From Candidatus Peribacter riflensis (GTDB lineage: Bacteria; Patescibacteriota; Gracilibacteria; Peribacterales; Peribacteraceae): a stretch of DNA of 32,000 nt. The stretch's first letter is position 1, and every line of letters starts with the position of its first letter. The position numbers and the translations under genes were made by a program. Of the stretch, positions 1-24,985 are shown piece by piece. Location of the stretch: contig CP013062.1 of the NCBI GenBank assembly GCA_001430755.1, forward strand, positions 330,001-362,000, in the 5' to 3' direction. The notes beneath the pieces are model-generated. The model did not search any database, was not told where the DNA came from, and saw nothing but the letters and a program-made list of their open reading frames with translations.

Positions 1-1213
1 TCGGGGGCACTTCGTTTGCCTGCGTGAGGTGTTTGGTCTTGGAGAGCGCCTTCACGGGTTGGTCAACGACCGTATCCTGAAACCAGCGGTGGAGCTCCCG
101 TGTGGGGATGCGCCGCAGACGGTTGCGCTGCACCTGCTCGATCAGGGGAAAAATCTTCAGGAGCCCCTCGCGGGTGACGGCGGAGCAGGGGAGGAGCGGT
201 GCGAAACGGCAGAAGATCAAATCGCGCCAGAGATCGTCCACGGCCTTGGCGCGCGCTTCGGTTGTGAGCCGGTCCACCTTATTGAGCAGGATGATGAGCC
301 CCTTGCCGGCCTCGGTGGCCAGAGTGGCGAGGCGCTGATCCTGGTGGCTGATGGGCTCGCACGCGTCGAGCACAAGGAGCGCCACGTCGCACTGCTCCAG
401 TGCCTGGATGCTCCTGAGTACGGCGTACTGCTCGATGCCGCTCTCCACATTCGACTTCCGGCGGATGCCCGCCGTGTCGATGAAGAGGTACTCCTGCTCA
501 TGAAAACGAATGACCGTATCCACGGCATCACGCGTGGTCCCGGGGATATCCGACACGAGCATGGGCGAGACCGAGCGCTGGGGATCAGACATGAACGCGT
601 TGATGAGCGAGCTCTTGCCCACATTCGGCTTGCCGATGACGGCGATCTTCGGCAGGTCGGATTTTTGCGTCTTCGGCTGTTTCTTGAAGTGGAGCTTCTT
701 CAGTTCCTTCGTGACCGCGGCGAGGAGCTCATCCGTGCCGATCGCATGCGGCGCGCTCACGGGGATGACGACGTCCGAGATGCCGAGCGAAAGGTATTCC
801 ACCATCTGTCCTTCGATGGTCGCGGGGTTGTCGCACTTCGTCGGCACGAGAATCACCGGCACGTGGCGGCGGCGGTTTTTCCTCAGAAGGTCGATGATGG
901 AGTGGTCGCTCTTCGTCAGCTCTTCGCGGCTGTTCAGCGTGAACAGGATGAGATCGGCATGTTCCAGTGCGAGCAGTGACTGCCGGTGCACGTCCTGTTC
1001 GAAGCCCTTGTCGGTCGTGCCGCCTCCCATGCCTCCGGTATCGAGCAGCAGAAAATCCATCGTCTTCGTCTCCATGCGGTGCGCCACGTGGTCGCGGGTG
1101 GTGCCTGCCACTTCGCTTTCAATCGCTTTGCGCTCGCCGACGAGCCGGTTGAACAGGGTGGATTTGCCCGTATTCGGTCTGCCGATAATGGCGACGGTGG
1201 GGAGGGAGGGCAT
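1..1213 (-). CDS. der: GTPase Der/EngA (tandem GTPase domains); the C-terminal end lies beyond the window start
   Basis: Absent from the ORF track because there is no stop in the window. Minus-strand translation from ATG 1213..1211 gives MPSLPTVAIIGRPNTGKSTLFNRL (first P-loop). The same frame at ~655..600 gives LPKIAVIGKPNVGKSSLINA (second P-loop). The frame stays open to position 2 (...KHLTQANEVPP, KH-like region). Confidence 0.9.
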   Translation of the reverse strand, partial: MPSLPTVAIIGRPNTGKSTLFNRLVGERKAIESEVAGTTRDHVAHRMETKTMDFLLLDTGGMGGGTTDKGFEQDVHRQSLLALEHADLILFTLNSREELTKSDHSIIDLLRKNRRRHVPVILVPTKCDNPATIEGQMVEYLSLGISDVVIPVSAPHAIGTDELLAAVTKELKKLHFKKQPKTQKSDLPKIAVIGKPNVGKSSLINAFMSDPQRSVSPMLVSDIPGTTRDAVDTVIRFHEQEYLFIDTAGIRRKSNVESGIEQYAVLRSIQALEQCDVALLVLDACEPISHQDQRLATLATEAGKGLIILLNKVDRLTTEARAKAVDDLWRDLIFCRFAPLLPCSAVTREGLLKIFPLIEQVQRNRLRRIPTRELHRWFQDTVVDQPVKALSKTKHLTQANEVPP

Positions 1214-1214
1214 G

Positions 1215-1253
1215 GGGAATACTCCCAGTGTAGCGTGTAACCGGGAGTATCCC
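1215..1253 (-). other. Intercistronic stem-loop between the giant-gene stop (1277) and the der start (1213)
   Basis: ATACTCCC (1219-1226) pairs with GGGAGTAT (1243-1250). GGG (1215-1217) pairs with CCC (1251-1253) across one bulged A, with a 16-nt loop. There is no U-run on the transcribed strand, so it is not a classical terminator. Confidence 0.35.
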
Positions 1254-1276
1254 ATCGCGAAAAGCGCTTCAATTGC

Positions 1277-4200
1277 TCAGCATTTGACCTGTTGAGATCC
1301 GGTGAAGTTGATCGTAGTGGGCACCTGCAGACTGCGGATCTGGTACTGGACGCGCAGTGTCTGGTTGCAGGCAGTGGTGCTGAAGGTTCTGAACGCGATG
1401 ATTTTCGTCACTATTGCGCCCGGCTTCAGTGTGCCCAAGACGCATGAAGTGCTTCCGCAGTTCGCGGCAGACATGAACGCAGCGCCCGGAGGAGTGGTGT
1501 AGTACAGCGTCAGATACGCCGGCGCGTTGCCCGTATTGCGGATGGTAATTTTGTGCGAGAACGTATGTCCCGGGCGAATGTAACTCTGTGCGTTTCCGTA
1601 CGAGGTTGCGTAGGCATAAATTTTGGCGCCAGCGCTGCTGCTCGCTGCCATAGCGGAGGAAACGCTGGAGGAGGAAGAAGCGGCAGAGGCAGTGCTGGCG
1701 ATAGACGCGCTGCTCACGGCGGGGCTGACGCTGCTACTCGCTGCAACGTTGGGGCACTCCTTCCATCCTGCAATGGAGAGACTGTACAGAGAGCACACTG
1801 TTGATGTGCTGCCGATCTGCACGTAGCAGGCAGGCAGAGCACCCGCGCAGGAAATGCCTATGCAGTGCACACAGTCCCCTGGAATACCAGACGAAGAAGA
1901 CGAAGGCGCGCTGCTGACCGAGTGCGCCGTTTCCGCGCTGGAAGACATCGGACCGACACTGCTGCTGGCACTGCTCGAAACGATGATCGGTGGCGGGGGG
2001 CAGCAGCAGCCGATGGGATCCTGCTGTGCGAGCGTCTCGGTGGCGGTATCGGCGAAGCCGAGCAGAGAGCCGAAGAACTGGACGAAGCGCATTGGCCAGC
2101 TACTCTGTGCCGTTACATTCCCTGCTGACCATATCCAATCGGGATGCTGCAGAGCGCATTCTGCCTGTGTCCTGTGTGTGCAGATTGCAAGACAGATGAG
2201 CGTGGAGGGAGTGCTTGTTGCCGAAGATTCGCTGCTGGAGGAGGAAGAAACCGGGGTGAGAGAAGAGCTGCTGAAAGACGCCGAAGATGCGCTGCTGATC
2301 GAAGAAGAAGCGGCGGGAACAGAGGTGACGGAAGACGAGATTCCGACGCAGCGGGCACACTGCGCGTAGCAGGGGGGGTTGCCGCATGCTCCCGAGTACT
2401 CCGCCTGCTGGCCGGCGGGACAATCGATGTGCGCGGCCTGCTGGCAGATATTATTCACGCACGTCGCCAGACAGGTGAATCCCATCTGGCACGAAGCCCA
2501 CGGAGTGGGGGAGCACGAAGTCGAGGAACTGCTCCGGTAAGAAACGCTGCCGGTTGGGACGAATGCCACGGCATCAACGGAGAATGCTCCCAACGGGCCT
2601 TCAATGTTCACGGAGAGAGATCCGGTCAGCGTAACCGCTCCGAGTTTCTGCCATCGGACGCCACCCCACGTGTGGGAACCGGACGGCGCGATTTTCTGGT
2701 TGACGGAGACGTCAAAGTTTTGCCATACATTTTCGTTGATGAACTTAGATTTGTATTGGATATCTGTTGCGTATCCGGGTGACGGTTTCCATGTTGCATA
2801 GATGTCGAATGGGACGGGGTTCTCGAATGCTGTATCGCTGTACCATCCGATCCGTGTGACTGGCGAGGGGCCGCCGCCATGGTAGACGTATGAATCGTTG
2901 TATCCACCCTCTCCTTGTACACGCCGGAAATCTCCGGTCATTGTATAGGGGGGGCTATTGTCGTCGAAGACAATGGTATCGGCGGGGAATTCTTCTGCCG
3001 ACAACGATGATTGCGACGAAGAGCTTTTCGGTGTGCAGGCAGCATCCCTGCAGAGTTTTACGATCTTCAGTACCGTTGTTCGGTTCACTTGTTGGCCGCC
3101 ACTGTACTCATACCGTTCGCCGTAGTACGCAACCACGGGAATGCCGTCCGGCCCGACAGCAAGGGAAGTATAGAGACCAATATCCTGAGCGTTCCATGTC
3201 GCAGGATTCCCTTCGAGCGTCACGATAGCTTTCTGCGCGCATGTCGCATCGTTACACTGGGCGATCTTGAACGTATTCGCGACACCGTCGTGATAGGCAA
3301 GAAGAGGATTCCCGTCTTGGATGACCATGCTGACATACTCGCCCGCGTTCCCCGCGCCGCCGTTGCCATCTACGGATGTGAAAATGGTATTCGCGCTGCA
3401 GGAAGGATTGATGCACTTTGCGATTTCAAGATCGCGTGCCACGTTATTGTAATATGCCAGAACGGGCAGACCATCCTGTCCCATTGCAATTTGCGAGAAC
3501 ATGCCGGAGTGCTGTTGTGATCGAGATTCATTGTGTACCGGCGAGACGAATGCATTGGAGCATTGGGCATCATTGCACTTTGCATATTTGAGACGCTGCC
3601 AAGTGTAGTCCATGTACGAAATAACAGGATTGCCGTCGGCTCCTATTGTGATATCGGTGTATGGTCCTACATGCCCTGTGTTGAATACGGTCTTCCGGTT
3701 TGTTGACGTGCAATCGGTATCGAGGCACTTCGCCACTTTCAGTGTGCCGTTCGCAACACTGAGATAGGAGTAGTACGAAATGACAGGAAGGTTATCGGAT
3801 GGGATGACAATGGCGCTGTACCGGCCCACGTCTCCGACGCTGTCGATCGTACGGATGCTCGCTATTGCCGGTGTGCAGAAACGATCTCTGCAGCGCGCGA
3901 TTTTAAGATTCTTGTTCGTTTGGTCGTAGTACGAAATGACAGGATATCCGTTGCCGTCGAGTGCGATTCCTGCAAAGAGACCGACATTTCCGGAGGTATC
4001 CAGAACGGTAATCGTTGGTGACTCGCAAGATGGAGTGGTGCACTTTGCGACTTTCAAATCGCCGTTTATCTGATCGTAGTAGGCGAGTATAGGAAGATTG
4101 TCAGAGCCGACTGCGATTGATGCGTATTTTCCGGCCAGTTGGCCCGTATCGATCGTCGAGAAGCGCGGGAACCATGGACCGATCATGGTAGCGCCGTAAG

Positions 4201-7200
4201 AAGACGAGTTGCTGCTCGAAGACGCTGCCTGCTGTTTGTTACGGAATACCACCGTAGCGCAGACCGGCCCCGGCTGTACCGTGACCGTGCCCTGCAGCGG
4301 ATCGACGAGAGTCTGTTCCCAGGTGTGGCGCGGCTCCTCAATGATGGCATGGATGCCGGGAGGTACATCGATGAAGGTTGCCCGTCCGTCCTGACTGCTC
4401 TCCCGCGTTGTCGTGCCATCGAGCGTGAACGAAAAGGAGGGCGTGGGATGCACGAGTGCATTCGTCGCATCGAACGCCTCCTTCAGCACGATGACGCAGC
4501 CGGCTTGGGTGGAGGAAACGGAACTGGAGCTCGAAGAACTTGGAAGCGTATTTGAGGAAGAGCTGCTGGTCCTGATCGATGACGAACTCTGCGGCGCTCC
4601 CGTGGGCACGATCTTCACGGCATCCACGGTGTAGCGCTTGCTATTCGGCGCACGGATGAGCACGACAACTTCATCGCCTTTCGTGATCGTGACCCTTCCG
4701 ACTTTCTTGAATGGTACGCCGCCATCCACGATATCGGCTGCGGGAGCGTTCTGCTGGTTGATCGCCCAGATAATGCGCGTTTCATAGGAACTCTCTCCGT
4801 TGAGCCGCTGCCAGACGACGACATTGACGTCGTATGCATTCTCCGCATGTGGCTGCCACGCAGTGAAGACGTCGTACTCGCCGTTGGGAAGATCGTGCGT
4901 GTAGAACCCGGCTTGTGTCGTGAGAAGGCTTCCCGGCTGAGCCGCGTGCAGGCGGTGGTGCTCTTGGTAGCCCGCATCCTCGACCGTGCTCCAACCCGGC
5001 CCCCAAGTGAGAAAGTTCGTGATGCCGGAAACGGAGATCTCATCATCGAATGTCAGTTCTCCGCTTGCGGCGTGCAGTGAGGAAGAGAAAGATGAGACAG
5101 ACGATGCCGAAGAGGAAGAGCTCCTACTTGAGGAGGAAGAAGAGCTGCTGATCGAACTGTTGCCCGAAGAGGAGAGAGAACTCATTGGAGGTGGCGTTGT
5201 CGATTCGCCGATTTTGACACCGAACTTATCGAATTCCTCTGTGATCACAAATTGACCCTGAGCATTGTAGTGGTCCACAAATCGTGCCTGTGGGATGAGC
5301 CAGGTCTCCTGAGTGTTTTCCTGACGCACTTGCTCAATTTCGTACTGCGATCGAGATCCGCCTCCTTTCGATTGAGGATATCCTGAATTGCATACAAACA
5401 GCGGTGTAGATGTGTACTCAAACTGGCTCTTCCAAAAACTGATGTAATCGGCCGAAGCAATGTAATAGTGCTGGGCTTCACAGTGATTCGGGTGCGCAGA
5501 TCGTTGCACGTATGCCATTCCATTGAACGAGATATACGAGGGGAGTATCCGATCGATGACACTGTTCGTTCGAATGAAGGTATAGTCACTCACGTCAAAG
5601 TACTCGCGGTAGCGCAGTACGGAGTTGTCGTTCTGTGTTGCGGTCAACAGGCGGCCGATTCCATTGAACCATGCTTCGTCTGCGTACTCCAGCCGCGTGC
5701 TGTCGGATAGTGTTTGCGTGCGGATACGATTGCTGACGGGATACTTCGTCACTGACGTTGGACATGTGATGTTGTCGGTGAGTGTTCCCGTGGCTGTCGT
5801 GTGCGAGCCGTCGACGACGATGTAGGGATACTCCAGGATATTTGCGCAGGTGGTGAGTGTGGAGAGGGAGAATGCGATCTGCCGTTCAACGCTGGCACCG
5901 GCATCGATTGGTGGCAGGGTGCAGCGAACGGATCCTCCCGTCACAGTACAGTCGGGGTGTGTTCTGGCCACTCCGAGCGATGTGCGGACAAGATTGAATC
6001 CGGAAGGGAGTGCTATCCAAATCGAAGCATTTTCGCGCCTGCTCTCACCTGTATTTTTCACGGTCAATTGGTAGCGGAGATACGGTTCGGCCGACTGCAG
6101 AAATTGCGGACGTACCCGGCTGAGGGATGTGTGCAGCGAGGCGACGGTGCTGCGGCGGCTGCTGCTGGAGGAAGCCTCGATGAGGCACTGTCCGGAACAG
6201 CTGTCTTCATTCGTCGTATTGCCATCGTCACACTGCTCTCCTGGCTGATTGATCATGCCGTCGCCGCAGAAAGGAGCAGGCGAGGAGAGAGACGAAGACG
6301 AGCTACTGCCTGCAGAACTGATTGATGAGGGAGGAGCAACCGAGGAACTGGAGCTGCTGGAGGAAACTGGTGCAACGGAGAAGCTGGAGCTGCTCACCGA
6401 CAATGCACTCGACGTGCTTGAAACGGGCGCCGTCCCCCTCGGCACCAGCTTCACCGCATCCGCCACGAAGTTCGCGGTTTCGCGCGCTGTGATGTACACA
6501 CGGACGGTGGAGCCGTCGGTGATGATAATGGGAGCGGTAGTAATCTTCGCAAATATTGATCCCTCCCAGCGGCGAGTCTCGGCAAAGGTTGCAGGGTCAA
6601 GGCGTTGGTTGACTGCAATGGAAGGGAAATTCTTGCCGGGCTGCCCGACAATGACACCGGCGGCGTTCGTGACGGGCAGGGTGGGATCCCAGGTGGCGTA
6701 GACGTCGTATTCCCCTGTGGTGACAGTGTGAGCGAAGTAACGGGCGAAGGCGTAGCCGGGATTACTCGTCTGCGCTGCATGGCGACGCTGCGTCCCCAGA
6801 TATCCTTTTCCTGTTTCTATCGACCATCCGTTGCCGTCCGCGCGAAAGCGGCTTTCATCCCCTTGCACGTCGTCGAAGGTGATGGTGCCGGGGACGGGGG
6901 GGTCGTTTGGTATCGTCATGGTTCCATACCGCGTGCCTTCAATCACCAGCCCCGGTTGGTTGAGCCATGCAAACTTTGGCAGAGCTTTCCAATCATGCTG
7001 TGCATAGGAGGTATCATGTTCCCCATCAAACCACAGGATGTGGCTCTGGTGGATGCCGGTTGTGAATTGAGCGGGATCCGCACTATTCTCAAGAAACACC
7101 CGCACACCGGCAGGTCTGCTCTCATCGATTTTCGGTTGTAACACTGTCGCGTGGAGCGTCAGTATTTCACTGGAACCGCGCGCAATCGTCGCGATTTCTC

Positions 7201-9166
7201 TCGATCCGCAAAATTCCCCGCCCGGCGTGATAATGCCGCAGCGGACATAGAATTTTCCGGTTGCAGGCTTGCCTAAGTCCGAATCAAGACAACGTGAACC
7301 GAAGAGATAGTTGGCGATATCCACTGTGCAGGAACCACCTCCGCTCGTTGAGCTTCTCTGGGACACATAACAATTGCCACCTACACAAATCTTATCAGAT
7401 GTTATTTCGTACATATAATTCGTCTGTCGCCATTCCTCGTATGGCAACCATGATCCATTCGAAGGCAACACGTAGTGGCCATCCGCCTCTGCTGTAACGT
7501 CAGCAGACAACTTCCAGCGAATCGGCTGGTTGGGGCAATTGTTCGTCCGTGCTTCTGCGAATCCTCCGTCTCCCGCTCCTCCATAGACAACGCAGTGTAT
7601 GCGATTATTATATGATTTGCTTGCGCTCAGATTGAAGCTATCGGGATCAAAGGAAACATTCTGTGCGTCGACGGTGAAGACAAGACCGGAGAGTAACACT
7701 TCATTGAAGTGTTCGCCTTGCACGCCTGTAAATGCCGATCCCACGTAGGGACTTGCACCGTCCTCGGCTGCCGTGAAGGTGAACGAAGAAAGCGGCATTC
7801 CCTTGCGTACCTCCTTTGGGACTGTGCTGACATAGTTATTCGTATAGTTGAATGATTTCAGGTAATCCCCGATCGGCACGCTATCGCCCCCTTGCAGTGC
7901 CCCTGCGCGCTCGATGCGCATCTCCTGCGCATTGGTCATTACTGGATTGCTCGGAATGTGCACCTGTACGGGATAGACGGACTCGATATCGATGTTTTTC
8001 TTCTGCAATGAGTCAAACACCGCGCCCGACTGTTTCCCAACTGCCTTCATGACAGGATCAATCGCATGATTCTCATTCATATTGACGAATACAGTGCGAG
8101 GAGGAGCCATATGCACTGCGTTTTGCCCTATGGTTGGCACAATGATCACTTCCTCTTCCGTTCCGCTCGCAATCGTCAGTTGCTCTGAAAATATAAACCG
8201 CGCGCCTTCGCTGCCGTTCACCAGATTGGGCCGCCCGGGCGCACGCGCGATTGGCAATATTTGACTGCCTTGCCGACGGTACATCGTGTACATTTCAACG
8301 TTGCTGCCGATCTCCTTGTTGCCACAAAAATCATATTGCGCTCCATAAAACATGATCTGGGTATCCAGCTGTTCCAGCACGATATCTTCCCCTTCTGCGC
8401 GGAGTTTCATCGTGAGAATCGGCTTGCCCTCCTGTCCCTTCGTCCAGCGCTCGCCGCACGCGTAGAAATGCGGAATCTGCGTCACGTGAAGACTCCCCGA
8501 TGCAACACTTGGTACGGACGAACTGCTGCTTACGACGCTGCTGCCTTGCACTGCACTTACGCTCAACGCACTCTGCGGCGCAGATTGCGGCACCAGCTTC
8601 ACCGCGTCGGCATTAAACTGCTTCGATTCGCGTGATCCCACAAAGGCCCAGACACGCGATCCGTTGGTGATGGTTGCTGTGCCCAGTTTTACGAATCGCA
8701 CGCCATCCCACACTTGTGTGAGGGGAAAGGACGTGAGCTCACGCTGTTGATTGCGTGCACCAGAGAAAATACGCTTCATGCCGCCGGTGGCGTTTGGCTG
8801 CCAGATTGTATAGAGGACGCTTGTGGCGTTCTGCGCATCCGGCTGCCATGTGACGAAGACATCGTACGTTGCGGGAACGACATGATCGGTATGGAAGACC
8901 GTGTACGATTCCGCTTCGTTATTCGGCTGAACGGTATGTTTGACGTAACTGCCGCGGTAACCGACACCTGTGACGGTCTGCCAGTTCGGGCCGGTCATCC
9001 TGACCGTGATTCCGGGCAGCGCCGTGTTGTCGAAGGTGATTTCGGTGGGTGTTGGCTGTTGCAGCTGGGCGCGCAAGTGCACGATGCCCGTGGTACCGAG
9101 AGCGAGTGTTGCGAGGATGAGCGCGACGCGCATGCGCGGCCCGGTACCTCTGATGAGGGACGACAT
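1277..9166 (-). CDS. Giant secreted multi-domain surface/adhesin-like protein (2,629 aa)
   Basis: Uninterrupted ORF from the track. It has an N-terminal signal-like segment (MRVALILATLALGTTGIVHLRA). Internally repeated modules are separated by long poly-Ser linkers. I saw no recognisable catalytic motif, C-terminal TM helix or LPXTG motif. Confidence 0.9.
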   Translation of the reverse strand: MSSLIRGTGPRMRVALILATLALGTTGIVHLRAQLQQPTPTEITFDNTALPGITVRMTGPNWQTVTGVGYRGSYVKHTVQPNNEAESYTVFHTDHVVPATYDVFVTWQPDAQNATSVLYTIWQPNATGGMKRIFSGARNQQRELTSFPLTQVWDGVRFVKLGTATITNGSRVWAFVGSRESKQFNADAVKLVPQSAPQSALSVSAVQGSSVVSSSSSVPSVASGSLHVTQIPHFYACGERWTKGQEGKPILTMKLRAEGEDIVLEQLDTQIMFYGAQYDFCGNKEIGSNVEMYTMYRRQGSQILPIARAPGRPNLVNGSEGARFIFSEQLTIASGTEEEVIIVPTIGQNAVHMAPPRTVFVNMNENHAIDPVMKAVGKQSGAVFDSLQKKNIDIESVYPVQVHIPSNPVMTNAQEMRIERAGALQGGDSVPIGDYLKSFNYTNNYVSTVPKEVRKGMPLSSFTFTAAEDGASPYVGSAFTGVQGEHFNEVLLSGLVFTVDAQNVSFDPDSFNLSASKSYNNRIHCVVYGGAGDGGFAEARTNNCPNQPIRWKLSADVTAEADGHYVLPSNGSWLPYEEWRQTNYMYEITSDKICVGGNCYVSQRSSTSGGGSCTVDIANYLFGSRCLDSDLGKPATGKFYVRCGIITPGGEFCGSREIATIARGSSEILTLHATVLQPKIDESRPAGVRVFLENSADPAQFTTGIHQSHILWFDGEHDTSYAQHDWKALPKFAWLNQPGLVIEGTRYGTMTIPNDPPVPGTITFDDVQGDESRFRADGNGWSIETGKGYLGTQRRHAAQTSNPGYAFARYFAHTVTTGEYDVYATWDPTLPVTNAAGVIVGQPGKNFPSIAVNQRLDPATFAETRRWEGSIFAKITTAPIIITDGSTVRVYITARETANFVADAVKLVPRGTAPVSSTSSALSVSSSSFSVAPVSSSSSSSSVAPPSSISSAGSSSSSSLSSPAPFCGDGMINQPGEQCDDGNTTNEDSCSGQCLIEASSSSSRRSTVASLHTSLSRVRPQFLQSAEPYLRYQLTVKNTGESRRENASIWIALPSGFNLVRTSLGVARTHPDCTVTGGSVRCTLPPIDAGASVERQIAFSLSTLTTCANILEYPYIVVDGSHTTATGTLTDNITCPTSVTKYPVSNRIRTQTLSDSTRLEYADEAWFNGIGRLLTATQNDNSVLRYREYFDVSDYTFIRTNSVIDRILPSYISFNGMAYVQRSAHPNHCEAQHYYIASADYISFWKSQFEYTSTPLFVCNSGYPQSKGGGSRSQYEIEQVRQENTQETWLIPQARFVDHYNAQGQFVITEEFDKFGVKIGESTTPPPMSSLSSSGNSSISSSSSSSSRSSSSSASSVSSFSSSLHAASGELTFDDEISVSGITNFLTWGPGWSTVEDAGYQEHHRLHAAQPGSLLTTQAGFYTHDLPNGEYDVFTAWQPHAENAYDVNVVVWQRLNGESSYETRIIWAINQQNAPAADIVDGGVPFKKVGRVTITKGDEVVVLIRAPNSKRYTVDAVKIVPTGAPQSSSSIRTSSSSSNTLPSSSSSSSVSSTQAGCVIVLKEAFDATNALVHPTPSFSFTLDGTTTRESSQDGRATFIDVPPGIHAIIEEPRHTWEQTLVDPLQGTVTVQPGPVCATVVFRNKQQAASSSSNSSSYGATMIGPWFPRFSTIDTGQLAGKYASIAVGSDNLPILAYYDQINGDLKVAKCTTPSCESPTITVLDTSGNVGLFAGIALDGNGYPVISYYDQTNKNLKIARCRDRFCTPAIASIRTIDSVGDVGRYSAIVIPSDNLPVISYYSYLSVANGTLKVAKCLDTDCTSTNRKTVFNTGHVGPYTDITIGADGNPVISYMDYTWQRLKYAKCNDAQCSNAFVSPVHNESRSQQHSGMFSQIAMGQDGLPVLAYYNNVARDLEIAKCINPSCSANTIFTSVDGNGGAGNAGEYVSMVIQDGNPLLAYHDGVANTFKIAQCNDATCAQKAIVTLEGNPATWNAQDIGLYTSLAVGPDGIPVVAYYGERYEYSGGQQVNRTTVLKIVKLCRDAACTPKSSSSQSSLSAEEFPADTIVFDDNSPPYTMTGDFRRVQGEGGYNDSYVYHGGGPSPVTRIGWYSDTAFENPVPFDIYATWKPSPGYATDIQYKSKFINENVWQNFDVSVNQKIAPSGSHTWGGVRWQKLGAVTLTGSLSVNIEGPLGAFSVDAVAFVPTGSVSYRSSSSTSCSPTPWASCQMGFTCLATCVNNICQQAAHIDCPAGQQAEYSGACGNPPCYAQCARCVGISSSVTSVPAASSSISSASSASFSSSSLTPVSSSSSSESSATSTPSTLICLAICTHRTQAECALQHPDWIWSAGNVTAQSSWPMRFVQFFGSLLGFADTATETLAQQDPIGCCCPPPPIIVSSSASSSVGPMSSSAETAHSVSSAPSSSSSGIPGDCVHCIGISCAGALPACYVQIGSTSTVCSLYSLSIAGWKECPNVAASSSVSPAVSSASIASTASAASSSSSVSSAMAASSSAGAKIYAYATSYGNAQSYIRPGHTFSHKITIRNTGNAPAYLTLYYTTPPGAAFMSAANCGSTSCVLGTLKPGAIVTKIIAFRTFSTTACNQTLRVQYQIRSLQVPTTINFTGSQQVKC
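1280..1627 (-). other. C-terminal DUF11 / CARDB-like module
   Basis: FSHKITIRNTGNAPAYLTLYYTTPPGAAFMSAANCGSTSCVLGTLKPGAIVTKIIAF. Confidence 0.45.
2550..2985 (-). other. Golvesin C-terminal-like module, copy 4
   Basis: IVFDDNSPPYTMTGDFRRVQGEGGYNDSY...FDIYATWKPSPGYATDIQYKS...VNQKIAPSGSHTWGGVRWQKLGAVTLTG...SVDAVAFVPTG. Confidence 0.5.
3025..4135 (-). repeat. Seven tandem ~45-55-aa propeller-like repeats inside the giant protein
   Basis: There are seven units of G-x-[YF]-x-S-[IL]-A-x-G-x-D-[GN]-x-P-V-[IL]-[SA]-Y-Y...L-K-[IV]-A-[KRQ]-C-x4-C. The Cys pairs read AKCTTPSC, ARCRDRFC, AKCLDTDC, AKCNDAQC, AKCINPSC, AQCNDATC and KLCRDAAC. Confidence 0.75.
4232..4512 (-). other. Possible prealbumin/Cna-B-like fold module
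   Basis: CVIVLKEAFDATNALVHPTPSFSFTLDGTTTRESSQDGRATFIDVPPGIHAIIEEP...WEQT...TVTVQPGPVCATVVFRNKQ. The assignment rests on the pattern only. Confidence 0.3.
4598..5060 (-). other. Golvesin C-terminal-like module, copy 3
   Basis: LTFDDEISVSG...WGPGWSTVEDAGYQEHH...GEYDVFTAWQPHAENAYDVNVVVW...INQQNAP...FKKVGRVTITKGDEVVV...TVDAVKIVPTG. Confidence 0.5.
5865..6140 (-). other. DUF11 / CARDB-like beta-sandwich module
   Basis: LRYQLTVKNTGESRRENASIWIALPSGFNLV...CTVTGGSVRCTLPPIDAGASVERQIAFSL, which has the typical Y.l.V.N.G...a.nv.v.d.lP.g...C...g....C.lg.l.aG shape. Confidence 0.45.
6176..6271 (-). other. Myxococcus-type cysteine-rich repeat
   Basis: FCGDGMINQPGEQCDDGNTTNEDSCSGQCLIE matches the CGDG-x-GE-x-CDDGN-x-DGC-x-C pattern of that repeat family. 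Confidence 0.6.
6437..6885 (-). other. Golvesin C-terminal-like module, copy 2
   Basis: ITFDDVQGDESRFRADGNGWSIETGKGYLG...GEYDVYATWDP...VNQRLDP...WEGSIFAKI...DGSTVRVYI...VADAVKLVPRG. Confidence 0.5.
8588..9040 (-). other. Golvesin C-terminal-like / Xly CBD-like module, copy 1
   Basis: ITFDN...GPNWQTVTGVGYRGSY...ATYDVFVTWQP...SVLYTIW...NQQ...WDGVRFVKLG...ITNGSRV...ADAVKLVP. This follows the family hallmark W..G.Y.V..W...Y.V...NQ...W..LG...G..V...ADAV(R/K). Confidence 0.5.
9068..9166 (-). other. Signal peptide / N-terminal anchor of the giant protein
   Basis: Basic n-region (RGTGPRMR), a hydrophobic core (VALILATLALGTTGIV) and an HLRA|Q site that resembles an AXA cleavage site. Confidence 0.6.
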
Positions 9167-9191
9167 ATGGTATGTGTTGGTAAATCAGGTT

Positions 9192-9220
9192 ATTGTATCA
9201 AAAATGCTCTTTCTGTGCAA
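9192..9220 (-). promoter_or_regulatory. Candidate sigma-70 promoter of the giant gene
   Basis: The minus strand reads TTGCAC (9220-9215), a 17-nt spacer, then TACAAT (9197-9192). An untranslated leader of roughly 20 nt (TSS-dependent) follows, with no SD, before ATG 9166. Confidence 0.45.
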
Positions 9221-9266
9221 TATTTCCGTATTATTGGCTTGTATAAGAGATGGAAATTCTCTCGTT

Positions 9267-9296
9267 TTGGCGCTCCCCGCCAATATTGACTAGAAT
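9267..9296 (+). promoter_or_regulatory. Candidate leuS promoter (leaderless geometry)
   Basis: TTGGCG (9267-9272), an 18-nt spacer, then TAGAAT (9291-9296), followed by 6 nt (CGCGGC) before ATG 9303. There is no SD. Confidence 0.5.
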
Positions 9297-9302
9297 CGCG
9301 GC

Positions 9303-11765
9303 ATGCGTGACGCATTTGACCCCTCCGCCATCGAAGCCAAGTGGCAGAAGAAGTGGGAGGAGGCCCACATCTACGAAACGGATCTCAAGAAGGCCAAAGA
9401 CCCGTACTACTCGCTCGTCATGTTTCCGTATCCGAGCGGGGATAAGCTCCACGTGGGGCACTGGTACAACTTCGCCCCGGCCGACAGTTACGCACGCTTC
9501 ATGCGCATGAAGGGCCATGACGTCATGGAGCCCATGGGGTTCGACGCCTTTGGGCTCCCGGCCGAGAATTACGCCATCAAGAGCGGCATCCACCCCGACC
9601 AGTCCACGCGCTCAAACGTGCAGACGATGGTGAAGCAGCTTCGCCGCATGGGGTGCATGTACGACTGGAGCAAGATGGTCAATACGTCCACTCCTGAGTA
9701 CTACCGCTGGACACAGTGGCTGTTCCTGCAGATGTACGAAAGGAAGCTGGCACTCAAGAAGGAGGCCCCCGTGAACTTCTGCTCCAAGTGCCAGACGGTG
9801 CTGGCGAACGAGCAGGCGCAGGATGGCACATGTGACCGCTGCGGTACGACGGTCATTCAGAAGAATCTGAGTCAGTGGTTCTGGAAGATCACGGACTACG
9901 CTGAACGCTTGCTCGAAGGGCTGGACAATCTGGATTGGCCCGAGAAGACGAAGAGCATGCAGCGAAACTGGATCGGAAAAAAACATGGCATCAACATCAC
10001 CTACGAAGTGGAAGGGACGCAGGAAAAAATTGTCTGCTTCACCACCCGGCCAGATACGAACTTCGGCGCAACGTTCGTGGTGCTTGCCCCCGAACATCCA
10101 TTCGTCCGTAAGGTGTTTGAACGGAAGATTGATCCGACAAAAGGGGAGAATCGTGCGGACCATGTGCGCTGGTACTACGATCAGTCACTCAAGAAGACAG
10201 AACTGGAGCGCCAGGAGGAAGGAACCAAGAAAACCGGGGAATTCACGGGATTTTACGCCATCAATCAGCTCAACGGGTATCGCATGCCCATCTGGGTTTC
10301 AGATTTCGTTCTCGGTGGATTCGGTACCGGGGCCGTCGTAGGAGTGCCCGGCCATGATGTACGCGATTTCGCGTTTGCCCGGGAGTTCAAGCTTCCGGTC
10401 ATCCGTGTTGTTGTGGCGCGCGACGGAGATACTTCACCCATTGAACGTATTGAGCAGGTACAGGAAGCAGAGGGAACGATGATCAATTCCCAATTTCTGG
10501 ATGGCATGAATATTCACGATGCGACGAAGCGCATCATGAGTTATATGGAGGATAAAGGGATGGGACAAATCGTCACCCACTACCGTCTGCGTGACTGGCT
10601 TATCTCCCGCCAGCGCTACTGGGGCGCCCCCATTCCCATCGTCTACGATCCGGAGGGAAAGCCGCATCCGATTCCTGAAAAACACCTGCCGTGGTTGCTT
10701 CCGACGGATGTTGCCTTCAAGCCGACGGGCAAGTCTCCGCTCACCGAGAGCAAGGAGTTCATCAAGCGCACCGAGAAGCTGTTCGGCAAAGGATGGATAC
10801 CCGAGTTCGACACGATGGATACCTTTGTCTGCAGCAGTTTCTATTACCTGCGTTTTCTGGCCGAAGGCGATGAGAGGCGCCTCGTCGATCCCACGATCGA
10901 GAAGAATTGGATGCCCGTCAGCAGCTATATCGGCGGTCCGGAGCATGCATGCATGCACCTAATCTACGCACGGTTTGTGATGATGGCACTCAAAGATTTT
11001 GGCTTCGTGTCACACGAAGAGCCGTTCAAAAAATTAGTTCACCAAGGCCTCATCACGCACAAGGGTGCCAAGATGAGTAAGAGCAAGGGCAATGTGGTGA
11101 GTCCGGATTCCTTCATCGAGCGGTACGGGTCCGATGTCTTTCGCATGTACCTCATGTTCATGGGTCCCTTCACCGATGGTGGCGACTGGAACGATTTGGG
11201 GATCAAGGGAATCGACCGCTTCGTGAAGCGGATGTACGCGCTCTGCACCGAAAAAGTGAACAAAAAAGTTGATCAAGAAAACGTGAGTGCTGCCCTGCAC
11301 CGCACGATCAAGAAAGTCTCTTCAGATATCGAAGGGCTCCGGTTCAATACCGCCATTTCCGCACTCATGGAATTCTTGAACCTCCTCGAGCAGGCAGGGG
11401 GAGTGAACGTCGAAACGGCCAAGATCCTCGTGCGTCTTTTGGCCCCGCTTGCCCCGCATCTCTCTGAAGAGCTATGGGAAGTGCTCGGCGGCCCCTCCTC
11501 CGCCAAGGCTTCGGAGGGCAAGAAAGGGTTCGTCATCGAGCAGAAATGGCCGGCATTCGATGCCGCTCTCACGAAGGCTTCGACACACATCATCGCGGTG
11601 CAGGTGAATGGCAAACTGCGCGGCGAGATCGAGGTGGATGCCGCCACTCCGAAGGAAGAGGTGCTGCAGAAGGCCAAGGCGCATGCCAACGTGCAGAAGT
11701 TCCTCACCGGGAAGGTGAAGAAAGAAATCTACGTTGCAGGAAAGCTTGTGAGCCTGGTGGTGTAA
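9303..11765 (+). CDS. leuS: Leucyl-tRNA synthetase
   Basis: Class I signatures are HVGH (PSGDKLHVGHWYNF) and an exact KMSKS (GAKMSKSKGNVV). Also present are LRDWLISRQRYWG and a CP1 editing-domain-sized insert. Length is 820 aa. Confidence 0.97.
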   Translation: MRDAFDPSAIEAKWQKKWEEAHIYETDLKKAKDPYYSLVMFPYPSGDKLHVGHWYNFAPADSYARFMRMKGHDVMEPMGFDAFGLPAENYAIKSGIHPDQSTRSNVQTMVKQLRRMGCMYDWSKMVNTSTPEYYRWTQWLFLQMYERKLALKKEAPVNFCSKCQTVLANEQAQDGTCDRCGTTVIQKNLSQWFWKITDYAERLLEGLDNLDWPEKTKSMQRNWIGKKHGINITYEVEGTQEKIVCFTTRPDTNFGATFVVLAPEHPFVRKVFERKIDPTKGENRADHVRWYYDQSLKKTELERQEEGTKKTGEFTGFYAINQLNGYRMPIWVSDFVLGGFGTGAVVGVPGHDVRDFAFAREFKLPVIRVVVARDGDTSPIERIEQVQEAEGTMINSQFLDGMNIHDATKRIMSYMEDKGMGQIVTHYRLRDWLISRQRYWGAPIPIVYDPEGKPHPIPEKHLPWLLPTDVAFKPTGKSPLTESKEFIKRTEKLFGKGWIPEFDTMDTFVCSSFYYLRFLAEGDERRLVDPTIEKNWMPVSSYIGGPEHACMHLIYARFVMMALKDFGFVSHEEPFKKLVHQGLITHKGAKMSKSKGNVVSPDSFIERYGSDVFRMYLMFMGPFTDGGDWNDLGIKGIDRFVKRMYALCTEKVNKKVDQENVSAALHRTIKKVSSDIEGLRFNTAISALMEFLNLLEQAGGVNVETAKILVRLLAPLAPHLSEELWEVLGGPSSAKASEGKKGFVIEQKWPAFDAALTKASTHIIAVQVNGKLRGEIEVDAATPKEEVLQKAKAHANVQKFLTGKVKKEIYVAGKLVSLVV

Positions 11766-11864: not shown

Positions 11865-12821
11865 TCACTGCACAGGTGCAGCAACCGGTCCGGGCACGAA
11901 TTTGCCCGCCCTGTCACGATAGAGATCGGGGTCGATCGTGCGTTCGAAGCACACCCGTCCTGTCCCGTGTTCCCAGAAATCCATGCTGCCCGGTTTCATT
12001 GCATAGGAATCGCGGTTCTTGCTAGCAGAATCAGACGTGGTGTCGAACGTGGCACAGAGCGAGAATTTCAGAGCGCTCAGTCGCTCATACCCATACGGCT
12101 CACGTGTATCGGGATCCGATGGGAGCACGAAGCCTGTGAGCGGACTTTGCACTTCACTGAGCGATGCCGGCACTGTGTTCTTGGCGATCCAGAACTCGGT
12201 GACCTGATACTGAATTTGCTGAAGGTCACTGAGTCGTTGCTCGTCGAAGCGCACACGCCGTTGCTCGAAGGGTGAGCCGCTCAGGAAGAATCCGGCGACG
12301 ATGACGACAAGGACGATGCCCGCAAGGCCCCAGCTGACGGTGCGGTTGCCGGAGGTCGGCTGGAAGCTCGTCCGGCGCACATCCCACATTTCGTAACCAA
12401 AGACCAGGCCGGCGACGAGGCCGACGGCAAGGATCTTCAAGAGAAAGCGGACGGTGAGATCCCCATTGAGGAAGTTGAAGAGCAGGGTGATGAGGTCACC
12501 GATGACCACGAGCGCGGCCACGAAGACCGTGAGGTACAGCAGCCACTTGCGGATGCGATACTCAGCCTTTTCCGGATGGCTCGTGAGATCCCGGTGCAGA
12601 AAGCCTGTCGTGAAGGCGAAGGCCGGAAAGAGGACTGTGAGCATGGCCGCGCCCCAGCGGATGGAAGCGCGCACGCCGACCGCATAATCGAGCGGATCGG
12701 GGAACGCAAGATTGATGAACTGGAAGAGGAGCATCAGGCCGCTGATCACGCTCACGTAGAGAGTGACCGTGGCGAGCAGATAGAGGAAGAAGTCGCGCGG
12801 ATAGGTGTGAGAGTCAGACAT
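11865..12821 (-). CDS. DUF5671-like multi-pass membrane protein with an extracytoplasmic C-terminal domain
   Basis: The N-terminus reads PRDFFLYLLATVTLYVSVISGLMLLFQFINLAFPDPL...IRWGAAML...IRKWLLYLTVFVAALVVIGDLITLLFNFLNGDLTVRFLLKILAV...GYEMWDVRR, which matches the remembered DUF5671 pattern. There are 4-5 TM helices. Confidence 0.6.
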   Translation of the reverse strand: MSDSHTYPRDFFLYLLATVTLYVSVISGLMLLFQFINLAFPDPLDYAVGVRASIRWGAAMLTVLFPAFAFTTGFLHRDLTSHPEKAEYRIRKWLLYLTVFVAALVVIGDLITLLFNFLNGDLTVRFLLKILAVGLVAGLVFGYEMWDVRRTSFQPTSGNRTVSWGLAGIVLVVIVAGFFLSGSPFEQRRVRFDEQRLSDLQQIQYQVTEFWIAKNTVPASLSEVQSPLTGFVLPSDPDTREPYGYERLSALKFSLCATFDTTSDSASKNRDSYAMKPGSMDFWEHGTGRVCFERTIDPDLYRDRAGKFVPGPVAAPVQ

Positions 12822-24935: not shown

Positions 24936-24956
24936 AGGCAATGCGGTAGAGAATTG

Positions 24957-24985
24957 ATTCAATGCTCCGTTAGGATTTCTGTCAA
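24957..24985 (-). promoter_or_regulatory. Candidate promoter of the alpha-CTD-like gene
   Basis: The minus strand reads TTGACA (24985-24980), a 17-nt spacer, then TTGAAT (24962-24957). Confidence 0.35.

What the first reader, a model, noticed from the sequence alone, without database searches (positions are those of the whole stretch)
1277..9166. A 7.9-kb single ORF encodes a 2,629-aa secreted mosaic protein between der and leuS
This one gene takes up about a quarter of the window. The sequence shows a signal-like N-terminus and four paralogous ~150-aa golvesin/Xly-like binding modules. It also shows a seven-blade Cys-clamped repeat, two DUF11/CARDB-like sandwiches and a Myxococcus-type Cys-rich repeat. 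About 530 aa (roughly residues 225-760) are unassigned. The C-terminal third is Cys-rich (CSPTPWASCQMGFTCLATCVNNIC, CCCPPPP, GDCVHCIGISCAGALPAC). All modules are joined by poly-Ser linkers that may be glycosylated. I saw no catalytic motif and no recognisable cell-wall or membrane anchor. Codon usage is visibly richer in A/T-ending codons than in the flanking housekeeping genes. This combination is typical of host- or glycan-binding surface fibres, but the specific architecture is one I cannot place in any described family. It is the most likely lineage-specific, functionally novel element in the window.
Basis: partly seen in the sequence, partly recalled or inferred. Interest (0 to 1): 0.7.

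Follow-up and report, generated by a model that had tools for sequence, protein, structure and literature searches.

The report
Giant modular sugar-binding surface protein
This is a real 2,629-residue secreted protein of the tiny groundwater bacterium 'Candidatus Peribacter riflensis', built from four sugar-binding-type modules, a seven-bladed propeller and several spacer modules; it was most likely made to stick to sugars on another cell, and its gene was already listed, but not dissected, in the 2016 genome paper.

Summary
The ORF is real and exactly as described: window 1277-9166, minus strand, 2,629 aa. Its DNA is identical in three independent assemblies, and the protein is on at least 20 contigs.

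It is gene RIFOXYC2_FULL_PER-ii_58_32_312 of 'Ca. Peribacter riflensis' (candidate phyla radiation, CPR). The 2016 genome paper lists it as a hypothetical protein among 20 large Cys-rich, probably extracellular proteins that "may function in attachment".

- **Sugar-binding-type modules.** Four paralogous ~150-aa modules are distant Golvesin_C / xanthan-lyase C-terminal modules with a CBM6-like beta-sandwich fold (AF2 pLDDT 84; profile hit to PDB 6F2P, E 3e-5).
- **Repeats and small domains.** There are seven C-x4-C repeats, one DUF4215/myxo repeat and DUF11 domains.
- **The "unassigned" 536 aa.** This is one copy of a ~370-aa all-beta module. It occurs, often in tandem, in only 8 protein clusters out of 1.84 billion; every one whose source names an organism is Patescibacteria/CPR.
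- **Anchor and catalysis.** No catalytic domain and no known anchor was found.

In 22 related genomes der and leuS are neighbours and none carries this gene there, so it is a lineage-specific insertion.

Best reading: a secreted, disulfide-stabilised, multivalent glycan-binding adhesin. It is a new member of a known kind, and interest is moderate.

The parts
1277..9166 (-). Whole gene: 2,629 codons plus stop. It equals RIFOXYC2_FULL_PER-ii_58_32_312 / PeribacterA2_0320 (ALM09711.1).
9192..9219 (-). Sigma-70-like promoter match (TGCACA-16-TACAAT with an upstream TG), 26 nt before the ATG.
   Evidence: This is a consensus match only.
9068..9166 (-). Residues 1-33: signal peptide (Arg-rich n-region, h-region VALILATLALGTTGIV, possible cleavage after LRA). 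An alternative start at Met12 is used by the JGI gene call.
   Evidence: It is the only hydrophobic segment and there is no lipobox. No signal-peptide predictor was available.
8579..9061 (-). G1, residues 36-196: Golvesin_C/Xly-type CBM-like beta-sandwich.
   Evidence: Golvesin_C E 6e-5, model positions 12-131 of 132; AF2 pLDDT 84.
6884..8491 (-). U1, residues 226-761: a two-subdomain all-beta module seen in few proteins, those of named source being Patescibacteria/CPR. It carries a ~100-aa Cys-rich insert at residues ~531-631.
6425..6883 (-). G2, residues 762-914: second CBM-like module.
6173..6271 (-). Residues 966-998: DUF4215 / myxo_disulf_rpt Cys-rich repeat (4 Cys).
   Evidence: 27.4 vs 27 bits; 38.8 vs 20.8 bits.
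5747..6145 (-). Residues 1008-1140: DUF11 beta-sandwich (4 Cys).
5189..5746 (-). U2, residues 1141-1326: unassigned block (2 Cys), with no homologue found anywhere.
4586..5071 (-). G3, residues 1366-1527: third CBM-like module.
4223..4504 (-). Residues 1555-1648: probable SpaA/prealbumin-like fold domain (2 Cys). Tentative.
   Evidence: E 5e-4 to the SpaA_2 region of the L012 protein. No Pfam hit of its own.
3035..4174 (-). Residues 1665-2044: seven 50-68-aa repeats, each ending in C-x4-C. Inferred to be a 7-bladed beta-propeller.
   Evidence: No Pfam or PDB sequence match. The fold was not modelled.
2546..3001 (-). G4, residues 2056-2207: fourth and most divergent CBM-like module.
1733..2524 (-). 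Residues 2215-2478: three small Cys-rich modules (10, 6 and 6 Cys) separated by Ser linkers. Includes CCCPPPP and a hydrophobic MRFVQFFGSLLGF motif.
   Evidence: Similarity of the third module to P0013's CxxC...W.EC units is by eye only.
1280..1639 (-). Residues 2510-2629: C-terminal DUF11-like beta-sandwich (4 Cys). The protein ends ...QQVKC with no sorting signal.
   Evidence: DUF11 19.3 bits, E 0.0015.
1..1255 (-). der (engA), 21-61 nt downstream on the same strand, with no terminator-like hairpin between. Probably co-transcribed.
9303..11765 (+). leuS, divergent neighbour.

Best explanation
The gene encodes a 281-kDa Sec-exported, non-catalytic, modular protein of 'Ca. Peribacter riflensis' that most likely acts as a multivalent glycan-binding adhesin.

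After export, its Cys-containing modules are locked by disulfides. Four CBM6/35-like lectin modules of the Golvesin_C / xanthan-lyase C-terminal type are spaced along the chain. Between them sit beta-sandwich spacers (U1, two DUF11, a SpaA-like domain), one seven-repeat propeller-like domain and small Cys-knots. All are joined by about 300 residues of flexible, possibly O-glycosylated poly-Ser linker.

Several weak sugar-binding sites on one long tether would give avid binding to a polysaccharide surface. The most plausible target is the envelope or extracellular polysaccharide matrix (EPS) of a partner or host cell.

Shown: the gene is real, its module composition, the fold class of the G module, its rarity, and its insertion between der and leuS. 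Inferred: secretion, disulfides, sugar binding, glycosylation, and the target.
For: **Reality of the gene.** The DNA is identical in three independent assemblies and the protein is on at least 20 contigs, including the 1.25-Mb complete genomes. The gene contains no DNA tandem repeats.

**Export.** There is a single N-terminal hydrophobic segment with a positively charged n-region. All ten Cys-containing modules have even Cys counts: 10, 4, 4, 2, 2, 14, 10, 6, 6, 4.

**G modules.**
- The four modules are paralogous.
- G1 and G2 match Pfam Golvesin_C over nearly the whole model at E 6e-5 and 1e-4.
- Homologous modules in P0014 and the L084 protein pass the Pfam cut-off (56.6 and 56.9 vs 31.6 bits). 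They match the window's G profile at E 1e-9 to 1e-29.
- A 10-module profile hits PDB 6F2P, Paenibacillus xanthan lyase, residues 905-1037, at E 3.4e-5.
- The AF2 model has pLDDT 84 and pTM 0.83.
- Foldseek hits are CBM6 with bound neoagarohexaose (E 1e-5), 6F2P (TM 0.65, 23% identity), gingipain adhesin domains, CBM28 and a xanthan-binding module.

**Sugar binding in this domain family.** Bacteroides Cbeg4/5 modules of the same family (IPR033803) bind defined glycans (PMC9166713). The xanthan lyase carries an unclassified terminal xanthan-binding module (PMC10881899).

**No enzyme, phage or defence domain**.

**Organism context.** The genome paper reports many large exported Cys-rich proteins, a probable symbiotic lifestyle and heavy investment in surface sugars (PMC4736985).
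Against: - The window's own G modules score below the Golvesin_C cut-off (23.5 and 22.7 vs 31.6 bits).
- No ligand is known, and conservation of a binding site could not be examined.
- CBM-like folds also serve as protein-binding or purely structural domains, for example Cry toxin domain III and Eph receptors.
- No anchor to the cell was found, so the protein may be released rather than surface-bound.
- The signal peptide was judged by eye only.
- About 190 aa (U2) and the Cys-rich C-terminal modules have no assignment and could hide an activity.
- The U1 model is only moderately confident (pLDDT 61).
- There is no evidence of expression.
Confidence: 0.55

Rival explanations
1. It is a component of the bacterium's own cell envelope. 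It would be held on the cell by its CBM-like modules binding the cell's own rhamnose-, perosamine- or sialic-acid-containing surface polymers, forming a hydrated, glycosylated outer layer rather than recognising a partner.
For: The genome invests heavily in surface polysaccharides and in possible protein-glycosylation genes (PMC4736985). No covalent or membrane anchor was found, so binding to the cell's own glycans would explain retention. A CBM35 that binds the producer's own wall is a known precedent (cited in PMC11002231). The sequence is identical in every assembly checked, whereas the paper locates strain variation in the large exported proteins as a class. The gene appears to be co-transcribed with essential der.
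Against: There are no SLH or other S-layer domains. The gene is absent from the same site in 22 related genomes, and U1 homologues are very rare, so it cannot be a core envelope part of the lineage. Four divergent lectin modules suggest more than one ligand.
Confidence: 0.2
2. It is a released or loosely bound polysaccharide-capture scaffold. It would bind environmental or host-derived polysaccharide (EPS or detrital glycans) to keep substrate near the cell for scavenging.
For: The closest solved relative of the G module sits on a polysaccharide lyase. CBM arrays with Ser-rich linkers are typical of glycan-degrading systems (general knowledge). No anchor was found.
Against: No glycoside hydrolase, lyase, cohesin or dockerin is present in the protein or in neighbouring genes. 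The propeller, DUF11 and Cys-knot content resembles adhesins more than scaffoldins.
Confidence: 0.12
3. It is a toxin or effector delivery protein, with binding modules that target a cell and an unrecognised toxic or lytic module in the unassigned parts.
For: About 190 aa (U2) and about 260 aa of Cys-rich C-terminal sequence have no assignment.
Against: No toxin, peptidase, nuclease or RHS/polymorphic-toxin hallmark was found in Pfam, NCBIfam, PHROGs or PADLOC. The C-terminus is a DUF11-like sandwich rather than a variable toxin tip. There is no adjacent immunity-like gene, because der follows directly.
Confidence: 0.04
4. It is an assembly artefact or a decaying pseudogene, with chimeric joins through the Ser-repeat DNA.
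For: The gene is long, has low-complexity linkers and a somewhat lower GC3 than most neighbours.
Against: The 7,890 nt are identical in an ENA re-assembly, an NCBI MAG and a JGI metagenome, even though one of them differs in the flank. The protein is on at least 20 contigs including curated complete genomes. No tandem DNA repeats were found. The frame is intact and every module has an even Cys count.
Confidence: 0.01

Closest known systems
Golvesin_C (PF25275) / IPR033803 'CBM6-CBM35-CBM36_like_2' modules: C-terminal domain of Paenibacillus nanensis xanthan lyase (PDB 6F2P) and Bacteroides lectins Cbeg4/Cbeg5
   Same: The ~150-aa beta-sandwich shares the motifs (I/V)xDD, GxYxVYxxW, VNQ and (A/V)DAVKLV. 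The profile matches 6F2P residues 905-1037, and the AF2 model superposes with TM 0.65. Members of the family bind glycans (PMC9166713).
   Different: Here there are four divergent copies in one non-catalytic 2,629-aa chain, and each scores below the Pfam cut-off. The ligand is unknown. Cbeg4/5 have one copy plus an Fn3 domain, and in the lyase the module is appended to an enzyme.
Large Cys-rich extracellular proteins of 'Ca. Peribacter riflensis' (Anantharaman et al. 2016, PMC4736985, Table S4)
   Same: This gene is one of the 20 listed proteins (62 Cys, 2.36%, 2,629 aa). It shares their signal peptide, large size, weak Myxococcus Cys-repeat similarity and proposed attachment role.
   Different: It has among the lowest Cys content of the entries read from that table (2.4%, against a reported 7.2 +/- 2.4% for the 14-gene cluster) and is not stated to belong to that cluster. 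The paper gives no domain analysis. The G modules, U1 module, propeller repeats and insertion site are described here for the first time.
Golvesin_C + DUF11 mosaic proteins of other uncultured bacteria (P0014 Peribacteraceae MDD4287826.1; P0013 Patescibacteria MBU2259054.1; the L084 1,581-aa protein)
   Same: They use the same module vocabulary and partly the same order. P0014 reads SP-G-(sandwich)-G-U1-G-DUF11 with Ser linkers. The L084 protein reads SP-Gx3-DUF11x8.
   Different: Identity is only 20-35% per module, and module number and order differ. None of them has the Cys-clamped propeller together with G modules. None sits between der and leuS.
Cleaved-adhesin (K1-K3/HagA) domains of Porphyromonas gingivalis gingipains
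   Same: They have a similar beta-jelly-roll fold (Foldseek E 3e-5 to 9e-4) and are used in multiple copies as adhesion modules on a large secreted protein.
   Different: There is no sequence relationship (12-16% identity) and no protease domain here. The organism and secretion route differ.
Serine-rich-repeat and other Gram-positive modular adhesins (SRRPs, MSCRAMMs, AgI/II)
   Same: They are long secreted chains of beta-sandwich binding and stalk modules with Ser-rich, often glycosylated, spacers. The U1 model weakly resembles integrin leg, Als3, Sdr and AgI/II stalk domains.
   Different: There is no LPXTG signal and no long dipeptide Ser repeats or DNA tandem repeats. The matches have low TM scores (below 0.2) and the model is of moderate confidence.

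Membership tests
Golvesin_C (PF25275) / IPR033803 CBM6-CBM35-CBM36_like_2 | Each module scores above the Pfam gathering cut-off (31.6 bits). | tested here: not met
   G1 scores 23.5 bits (E 6e-5) and G2 22.7 bits (E 1e-4), both over model positions ~10-131 of 132. G3 and G4 give no hit.
Golvesin_C (PF25275) / IPR033803 CBM6-CBM35-CBM36_like_2 | Homology to bona fide members, shown through intermediate sequences. | tested here: met
   P0014 (56.6 bits) and the L084 protein (56.9 bits) pass the cut-off. The same stretches match the window's G profile at E 1e-19 to 1e-29.
Golvesin_C (PF25275) / IPR033803 CBM6-CBM35-CBM36_like_2 | CBM6/35-like beta-sandwich fold matching a solved member. | tested here: met
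   The AF2 model has pLDDT 84 and pTM 0.83. Foldseek gives 6F2P at TM 0.65 and E 3.6e-5, and CBM6 2CDP at E 1.4e-5. The sequence profile hits 6F2P residues 905-1037 at E 3.4e-5.
Golvesin_C (PF25275) / IPR033803 CBM6-CBM35-CBM36_like_2 | Binds carbohydrate. | not testable with these tools
   Only precedent is available: Cbeg4/5 glycan-array binding (PMC9166713) and the xanthan lyase terminal module (PMC10881899).
DUF11 (PF01345) repeat surface proteins | Match above the Pfam cut-off (24.6 bits). | tested here: met
   The whole protein scores 30.8 bits over two stretches, the best at residues 1030-1109. The C-terminal copy alone scores 19.3 bits.
DUF4215 / TIGR02232 myxo_disulf_rpt | Cys-rich acidic repeat above the curated cut-offs. 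| tested here: met
   Pfam 27.4 vs 27.0 bits; NCBIfam 38.8 vs 20.8 bits. There is a single copy at residues 966-998.
Seven-bladed beta-propeller | Seven sequence repeats of blade length. | tested here: met
   Seven 50-68-aa repeats carry the conserved pattern G.Y.S[IL]A....G.P[VL][IL][SA]YY...LK[IV]A[KR]C....C. P0002 has 14 such units.
Seven-bladed beta-propeller | Closed propeller fold, or a match to a known propeller family. | not tested
There is no Pfam hit even at E<=10 and no PDB sequence hit.
Sortase-anchored (LPXTG) surface proteins / SRRP adhesins | C-terminal LPXTG-type motif followed by a hydrophobic segment and a charged tail. | tested here: not met
   There is no LPXT[GAS], NPXTG or LAXTG anywhere and no C-terminal hydrophobic segment. 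The protein ends ...TGSQQVKC.
Bacterial lipoproteins | Lipobox [LVI][ASTVI][GAS]C at the end of the signal peptide. | tested here: not met
   No lipobox was found, and the first Cys is residue 237.
SLH-anchored S-layer proteins | SLH domains. | tested here: not met
   There is no SLH hit. By contrast, the unrelated protein at the same site in L004 has two SLH domains.
Polymorphic toxins / phage tail fibres / defence systems | A recognisable toxin, phage or defence domain. | tested here: not met
   No hit in Pfam, NCBIfam, PHROGs or PADLOC.

The most novel reading that the evidence does not exclude
The protein is the host-recognition tether of an episymbiotic CPR bacterium. Four divergent Golvesin_C-type lectin modules would read the surface polysaccharide of a specific partner cell. 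They are carried on a long glycosylated chain that also contains two domain families not yet described: the ~370-aa U1 module, seen here only in a few uncultured bacteria that are Patescibacteria/CPR where the source is named, and a C-x4-C-clamped seven-blade propeller. The der|leuS slot, which holds three unrelated large surface-protein genes in three Peribacteria lineages, would be a swap site through which these bacteria change their surface repertoire and host range.
Probability: 0.25. Interest if true: 0.6.

Novelty: new member of a known kind. Interest (0 to 1): 0.35.

Why it matters
CPR bacteria make up a large share of bacterial diversity. Most are thought to live attached to other cells, yet the molecules that mediate attachment are almost unknown.

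This protein is a concrete, testable candidate. It has four separable lectin-type modules with a confident model, which could be expressed and screened on glycan arrays.

It also marks two module families that are absent from Pfam and PDB: U1 and the Cys-clamped propeller repeat. In addition, it points to a genomic slot next to der where different Peribacteria lineages keep different large surface proteins.

The value is as a lead for experiments, not as a new principle. Giant mosaic adhesin-like proteins are common, and this class was already flagged in the source genome paper.

Tried and rejected
**Searches that failed or added nothing.**
- Full-length word-indexed homology search: swamped by poly-Ser words. 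It returned only the protein itself and one propeller-sharing Peribacteria protein.
- The same search with linkers masked as X: same result.
- A search with the four-module alignment returned nothing, not even the protein itself.
- PDB sequence searches found nothing for the whole protein, the 4-module profile, the U1 profile or the propeller profile. Only the 10-module G profile found 6F2P.
- PHROGs and PADLOC gave no hits, so phage tail fibre and defence readings were dropped.
- Tandem Repeats Finder found no DNA repeats in the gene, so assembly collapse was rejected.
- Local searches of U2, the SpaA-like domain, the Cys modules and the DUF11 copies against all fetched proteins and loci gave no relatives.

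**Weak or limited results.**
- The U1 AF2 model has pLDDT of only 61. Its Foldseek hits (integrin legs, sialidase CBM, Als/Sdr adhesins) have TM below 0.2. They support only 'tandem beta-sandwiches'.
- The metagenome scan with A1 returned one locus, L084.

**Idea rejected.** Horizontal transfer judged from GC3 was considered and not adopted. GC3 of 0.634 lies at the low edge of, but inside, the range of the neighbours.
Full report
**1. The observation**

The window holds a single ORF at 1277..9166 on the minus strand. It starts with ATG and encodes 2,629 codons, 281 kDa.

The der (engA) gene follows on the same strand. It starts at 1255 or, with a better ribosome-binding site and a typical Der N-terminus, at 1215. 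The leuS gene (9303-11765, +) is divergent. A sigma-70-like promoter match lies 26 nt upstream of the ATG.

The gene is not an assembly product:
- The exact protein is indexed in 40 blocks of the collection, and 24 contigs were read.
- The 7,890 nt are identical in an ENA re-assembly, an NCBI MAG (GCA_003500185.1) and a JGI metagenome, although the MAG differs in the flank.
- The Ser linkers use mixed codons, and Tandem Repeats Finder finds no DNA repeat.

**2. Identity**

The protein equals ALM09711.1, ALM10813.1, ALM11915.1 and ALM13018.1, 'PeribacterA2_0320' of 'Candidatus Peribacter riflensis'. UniRef names it 'DUF11 domain-containing protein'. It is on 20 contigs, the longest 1,248,181 bp.

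In the supplement of Anantharaman et al. 2016 (PMC4736985) it is RIFOXYC2_FULL_PER-ii_58_32_312, at 331363..339252 (-). It is annotated 'hypothetical protein' and lies between engA (_311) and leuS (_313). Table S4 lists it among 20 Cys-rich large proteins (62 Cys, 2.36%, 2,629 aa).

[quoted passage not shown] It also notes weak similarity to Myxococcus Cys-rich repeats. So the gene and the class-level idea are published. The domain dissection below is not.

**3. Anatomy (protein residues)**

| Residues | Module | Cys |
|---|---|---|
| 1-33 | signal peptide | 0 |
| 36-196 | G1 | 0 |
| ~197-225 | Ser linker | - |
| 226-761 | U1 | 10 |
| 762-914 | G2 | 0 |
| ~915-965 | Ser linker | - |
| 966-998 | DUF4215/myxo repeat | 4 |
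| 1008-1140 | DUF11 | 4 |
| 1141-1326 | U2, unassigned | 2 |
| ~1327-1365 | Ser linker | - |
| 1366-1527 | G3 | 0 |
| ~1528-1554 | Ser linker | - |
| 1555-1648 | SpaA-like (tentative) | 2 |
| 1665-2044 | seven C-x4-C repeats | 14 |
| 2056-2207 | G4 | 0 |
| 2215-2478 | three small Cys modules separated by linkers | 10, 6, 6 |
| 2510-2629 | DUF11-like | 4 |

- Ser-rich linkers total about 300 residues.
- Every Cys-containing module has an even number of Cys, and the G modules have none. This fits disulfide-bonded extracytoplasmic folding.
- The only hydrophobic segment is residues 11-31. There is no LPXTG, lipobox, SLH domain or C-terminal membrane segment.

**4. The G modules**

- The four copies are paralogous, with 26-37% identity and E 1e-5 to 1e-27.
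- G1 and G2 match Pfam Golvesin_C across almost the whole model, but below its cut-off: 23.5 and 22.7 bits against 31.6.
- The link is closed through intermediates. Modules of P0014 (Peribacteraceae) and of the 1,581-aa protein in metagenome locus L084 pass the cut-off at 56.6 and 56.9 bits. The same stretches match the window's G profile at E 1e-19 to 1e-29.
- A profile of ten G modules hits the C-terminal domain of Paenibacillus nanensis xanthan lyase (PDB 6F2P, residues 905-1037) at E 3.4e-5. The shared motifs include the final (A/V)DAVKLV strand.
- AF2 on G1, using only its three paralogues as the alignment, gave a confident beta-sandwich with pLDDT 84 and pTM 0.83.
- Foldseek hits were CBM6 with bound neoagarohexaose (E 1.4e-5), 6F2P (best TM, 0.65, at 23% identity), gingipain K1-K3 adhesin domains, CBM28 and a xanthan-binding module.

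For function there is only precedent. Cbeg4/5 modules of the same InterPro family bind a defined glycan motif (PMC9166713). The xanthan lyase is said to carry an additional, unclassified terminal xanthan-binding module (PMC10881899).

The only two invariant columns across the ten modules are an N-terminal Asp and the Asp of the DAV motif. From my own knowledge of CBM6/35, residues from the first and last strands hold a structural calcium. This was not tested here.

**5. The 'unassigned' 536 aa (U1)**

- An exhaustive HMMER scan of 1.84 billion representative proteins found only eight proteins at E<=1e-3.
- The four whose sources name an organism are Peribacteraceae, Peregrinibacteria or 'Patescibacteria group'.
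- Local iteration shows that U1 is one copy of a ~370-aa two-part module. It is tandemly repeated three times in P0016 and twice in P0004, P0005 and P0008. It often ends the protein with the motif SHIxWxDxD...W...T.NGTxY.
- The window's copy carries an extra Cys-rich insert of about 100 aa.
- The same proteins also carry G, DUF11 and DUF4215 modules. P0014 reads SP-G-sandwich-G-U1-G-DUF11 with Ser linkers, partly collinear with the window protein.
- The U1 profile has no PDB match.
- AF2 with 14 sequences gave an all-beta model of moderate confidence (pLDDT 61). Two better-defined sandwiches appear, and the insert is disordered.
- Foldseek hits were integrin leg domains, a sialidase CBM, and Als, Sdr and AgI/II adhesin stalks. 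All have low TM, so they support only 'tandem beta-sandwiches'.

**6. The propeller-like region**

Seven repeats of 50-68 aa follow the pattern G.Y.S[IL]A....G.P[VL][IL][SA]YY...LK[IV]A[KR]C....C. The only relative found, P0002 (Peribacteria RIFCSPHIGHO2_02_FULL_52_16), has 14 such units, 34% identity, plus FG-GAP and DUF4215 repeats.

There is no Pfam hit even at E<=10 and no PDB hit.

**7. Genomic context**

A LeuS-based scan of one genome per species returned many Peribacteria loci. In the 22 of these loci where der could be located, der and leuS are divergent neighbours:
- In seven genomes the gap is at most 130 bp.
- In most others it is 0.4-1.9 kb, and in two of them (L006, L020) a GNAT acetyltransferase ORF was identified there.
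- None has G or U1 modules at this site.

The 7.9-kb gene is therefore a lineage-specific insertion.

Two other lineages carry unrelated large surface-protein genes in the same slot and in the same orientation upstream of der:
- L004: 915 aa, SLH x2 plus the Beta_propel domain.
- L012: 1,269 aa, TSP_3 x14 plus SpaA-like domains.

In the window there is no terminator-like hairpin between the giant gene and der. Either der is read through from the giant gene's promoter or it uses a promoter inside the gene's 3' end.

GC3 of the gene is 0.634, against 0.635-0.83 in nine neighbours. The lowest values (0.52-0.56) fall in the codon windows that cover much of U1 and U2.

**8. Mechanism**

Most likely (0.55), this is a Sec-exported, disulfide-stabilised, non-catalytic chain. 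It presents four lectin-type modules, a propeller and small Cys-knots on long Ser linkers, giving avid multivalent binding to a polysaccharide surface.

- **Target.** Whether it is a partner or host cell, the cell's own envelope (rival, 0.2) or free polysaccharide (rival, 0.12) cannot be decided here.
- **Retention.** How the protein is kept on the cell is unexplained. Possibilities are an uncleaved signal anchor, or binding to the cell's own glycans through one of the CBM-like modules.
- **Glycosylation.** Linker glycosylation is an inference. It is consistent with the paper's note of multiple dolichol-phosphate-mannosyltransferase-like genes.
- **Other rivals.** An effector with a hidden toxic module (0.04) and an artefact (0.01) are unlikely.

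**9. Novelty and verdict**

The gene is already listed and its class already discussed in the literature. Its architecture belongs to a small, Patescibacteria-associated set of G/DUF11/DUF4215/U1 mosaics.

New here:
- the domain dissection;
- the assignment of the G modules to the Golvesin_C / xanthan-lyase CBM-like family;
- recognition of U1 as a repeatable module seen so far in only a handful of uncultured bacteria;
- the seven C-x4-C repeats as a family outside Pfam and PDB;
- the der|leuS insertion slot.

It is a new member of a known kind (giant modular adhesin-like surface proteins). Interest is 0.35.

Noticed in passing
window 1-1280 and 9167-9302; loci L004 7135-9879(-), L012 5602-9408(-): The der|leuS slot holds three unrelated large surface-protein genes in three Peribacteria lineages: this 2,629-aa gene, an SLH + Beta_propel 915-aa protein, and a TSP_3 x14 + SpaA 1,269-aa protein. 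All lie upstream of and co-directional with der. In seven related genomes the two genes are at most 130 bp apart.
   Followed up: partly
window 1215-1279: Only 21-61 nt and no terminator-like hairpin separate the giant gene's stop from der, an essential ribosome-assembly GTPase. Either der is co-transcribed with the 7.9-kb gene or it uses a promoter inside that gene's 3' end.
   Followed up: partly
L084 9884-14629(+) (metagenome contig Ga0172379_10000166): A 1,581-aa protein with a signal peptide, three Golvesin_C modules (56.9 bits) and eight DUF11 domains. It lies between aspS and mfd. It is an independent example of the G + DUF11 combination, in a 62% GC organism that was not identified.
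   Followed up: partly
window 1982-2209 (residues 2320-2395): A hydrophobic motif, MRFVQFFGSLLGF, follows a Cys cluster and precedes CCCPPPP. A similar VFVRFFESLWARL motif sits after a Cys-rich unit in the Patescibacteria homologue P0013. Its function is unknown.
   Followed up: no
window 11865-12821 (-): A DUF5671 protein (95.6 bits), a family I know mainly from CPR genomes, lies just beyond leuS. The genome paper gave it a weak gspG-like label.
   Followed up: no
window 24471-24962 (-): A stand-alone 163-aa ORF carries an RNA polymerase alpha C-terminal-domain / helix-hairpin-helix match (44 bits). It overlaps the 3' end of the UvrD/PD-(D/E)XK helicase-nuclease gene on the opposite strand. 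It is unclear whether it is a real gene.
   Followed up: no
window 9133-9166: The start codon is ambiguous. The JGI gene call begins at Met12 (2,618 aa), which has a GAGG-like motif 12 nt upstream. Met1 has no Shine-Dalgarno-like sequence but sits 26 nt after the promoter-like site.
   Followed up: partly
collections searched: Neither the genome-collection scan with LeuS nor the metagenome scan with the G modules returned the source organism's own contigs. Yet the exact protein is indexed on many Rifle contigs. The source genome seems to be missing from those two collections, so close Peribacter relatives could not be examined.
   Followed up: no
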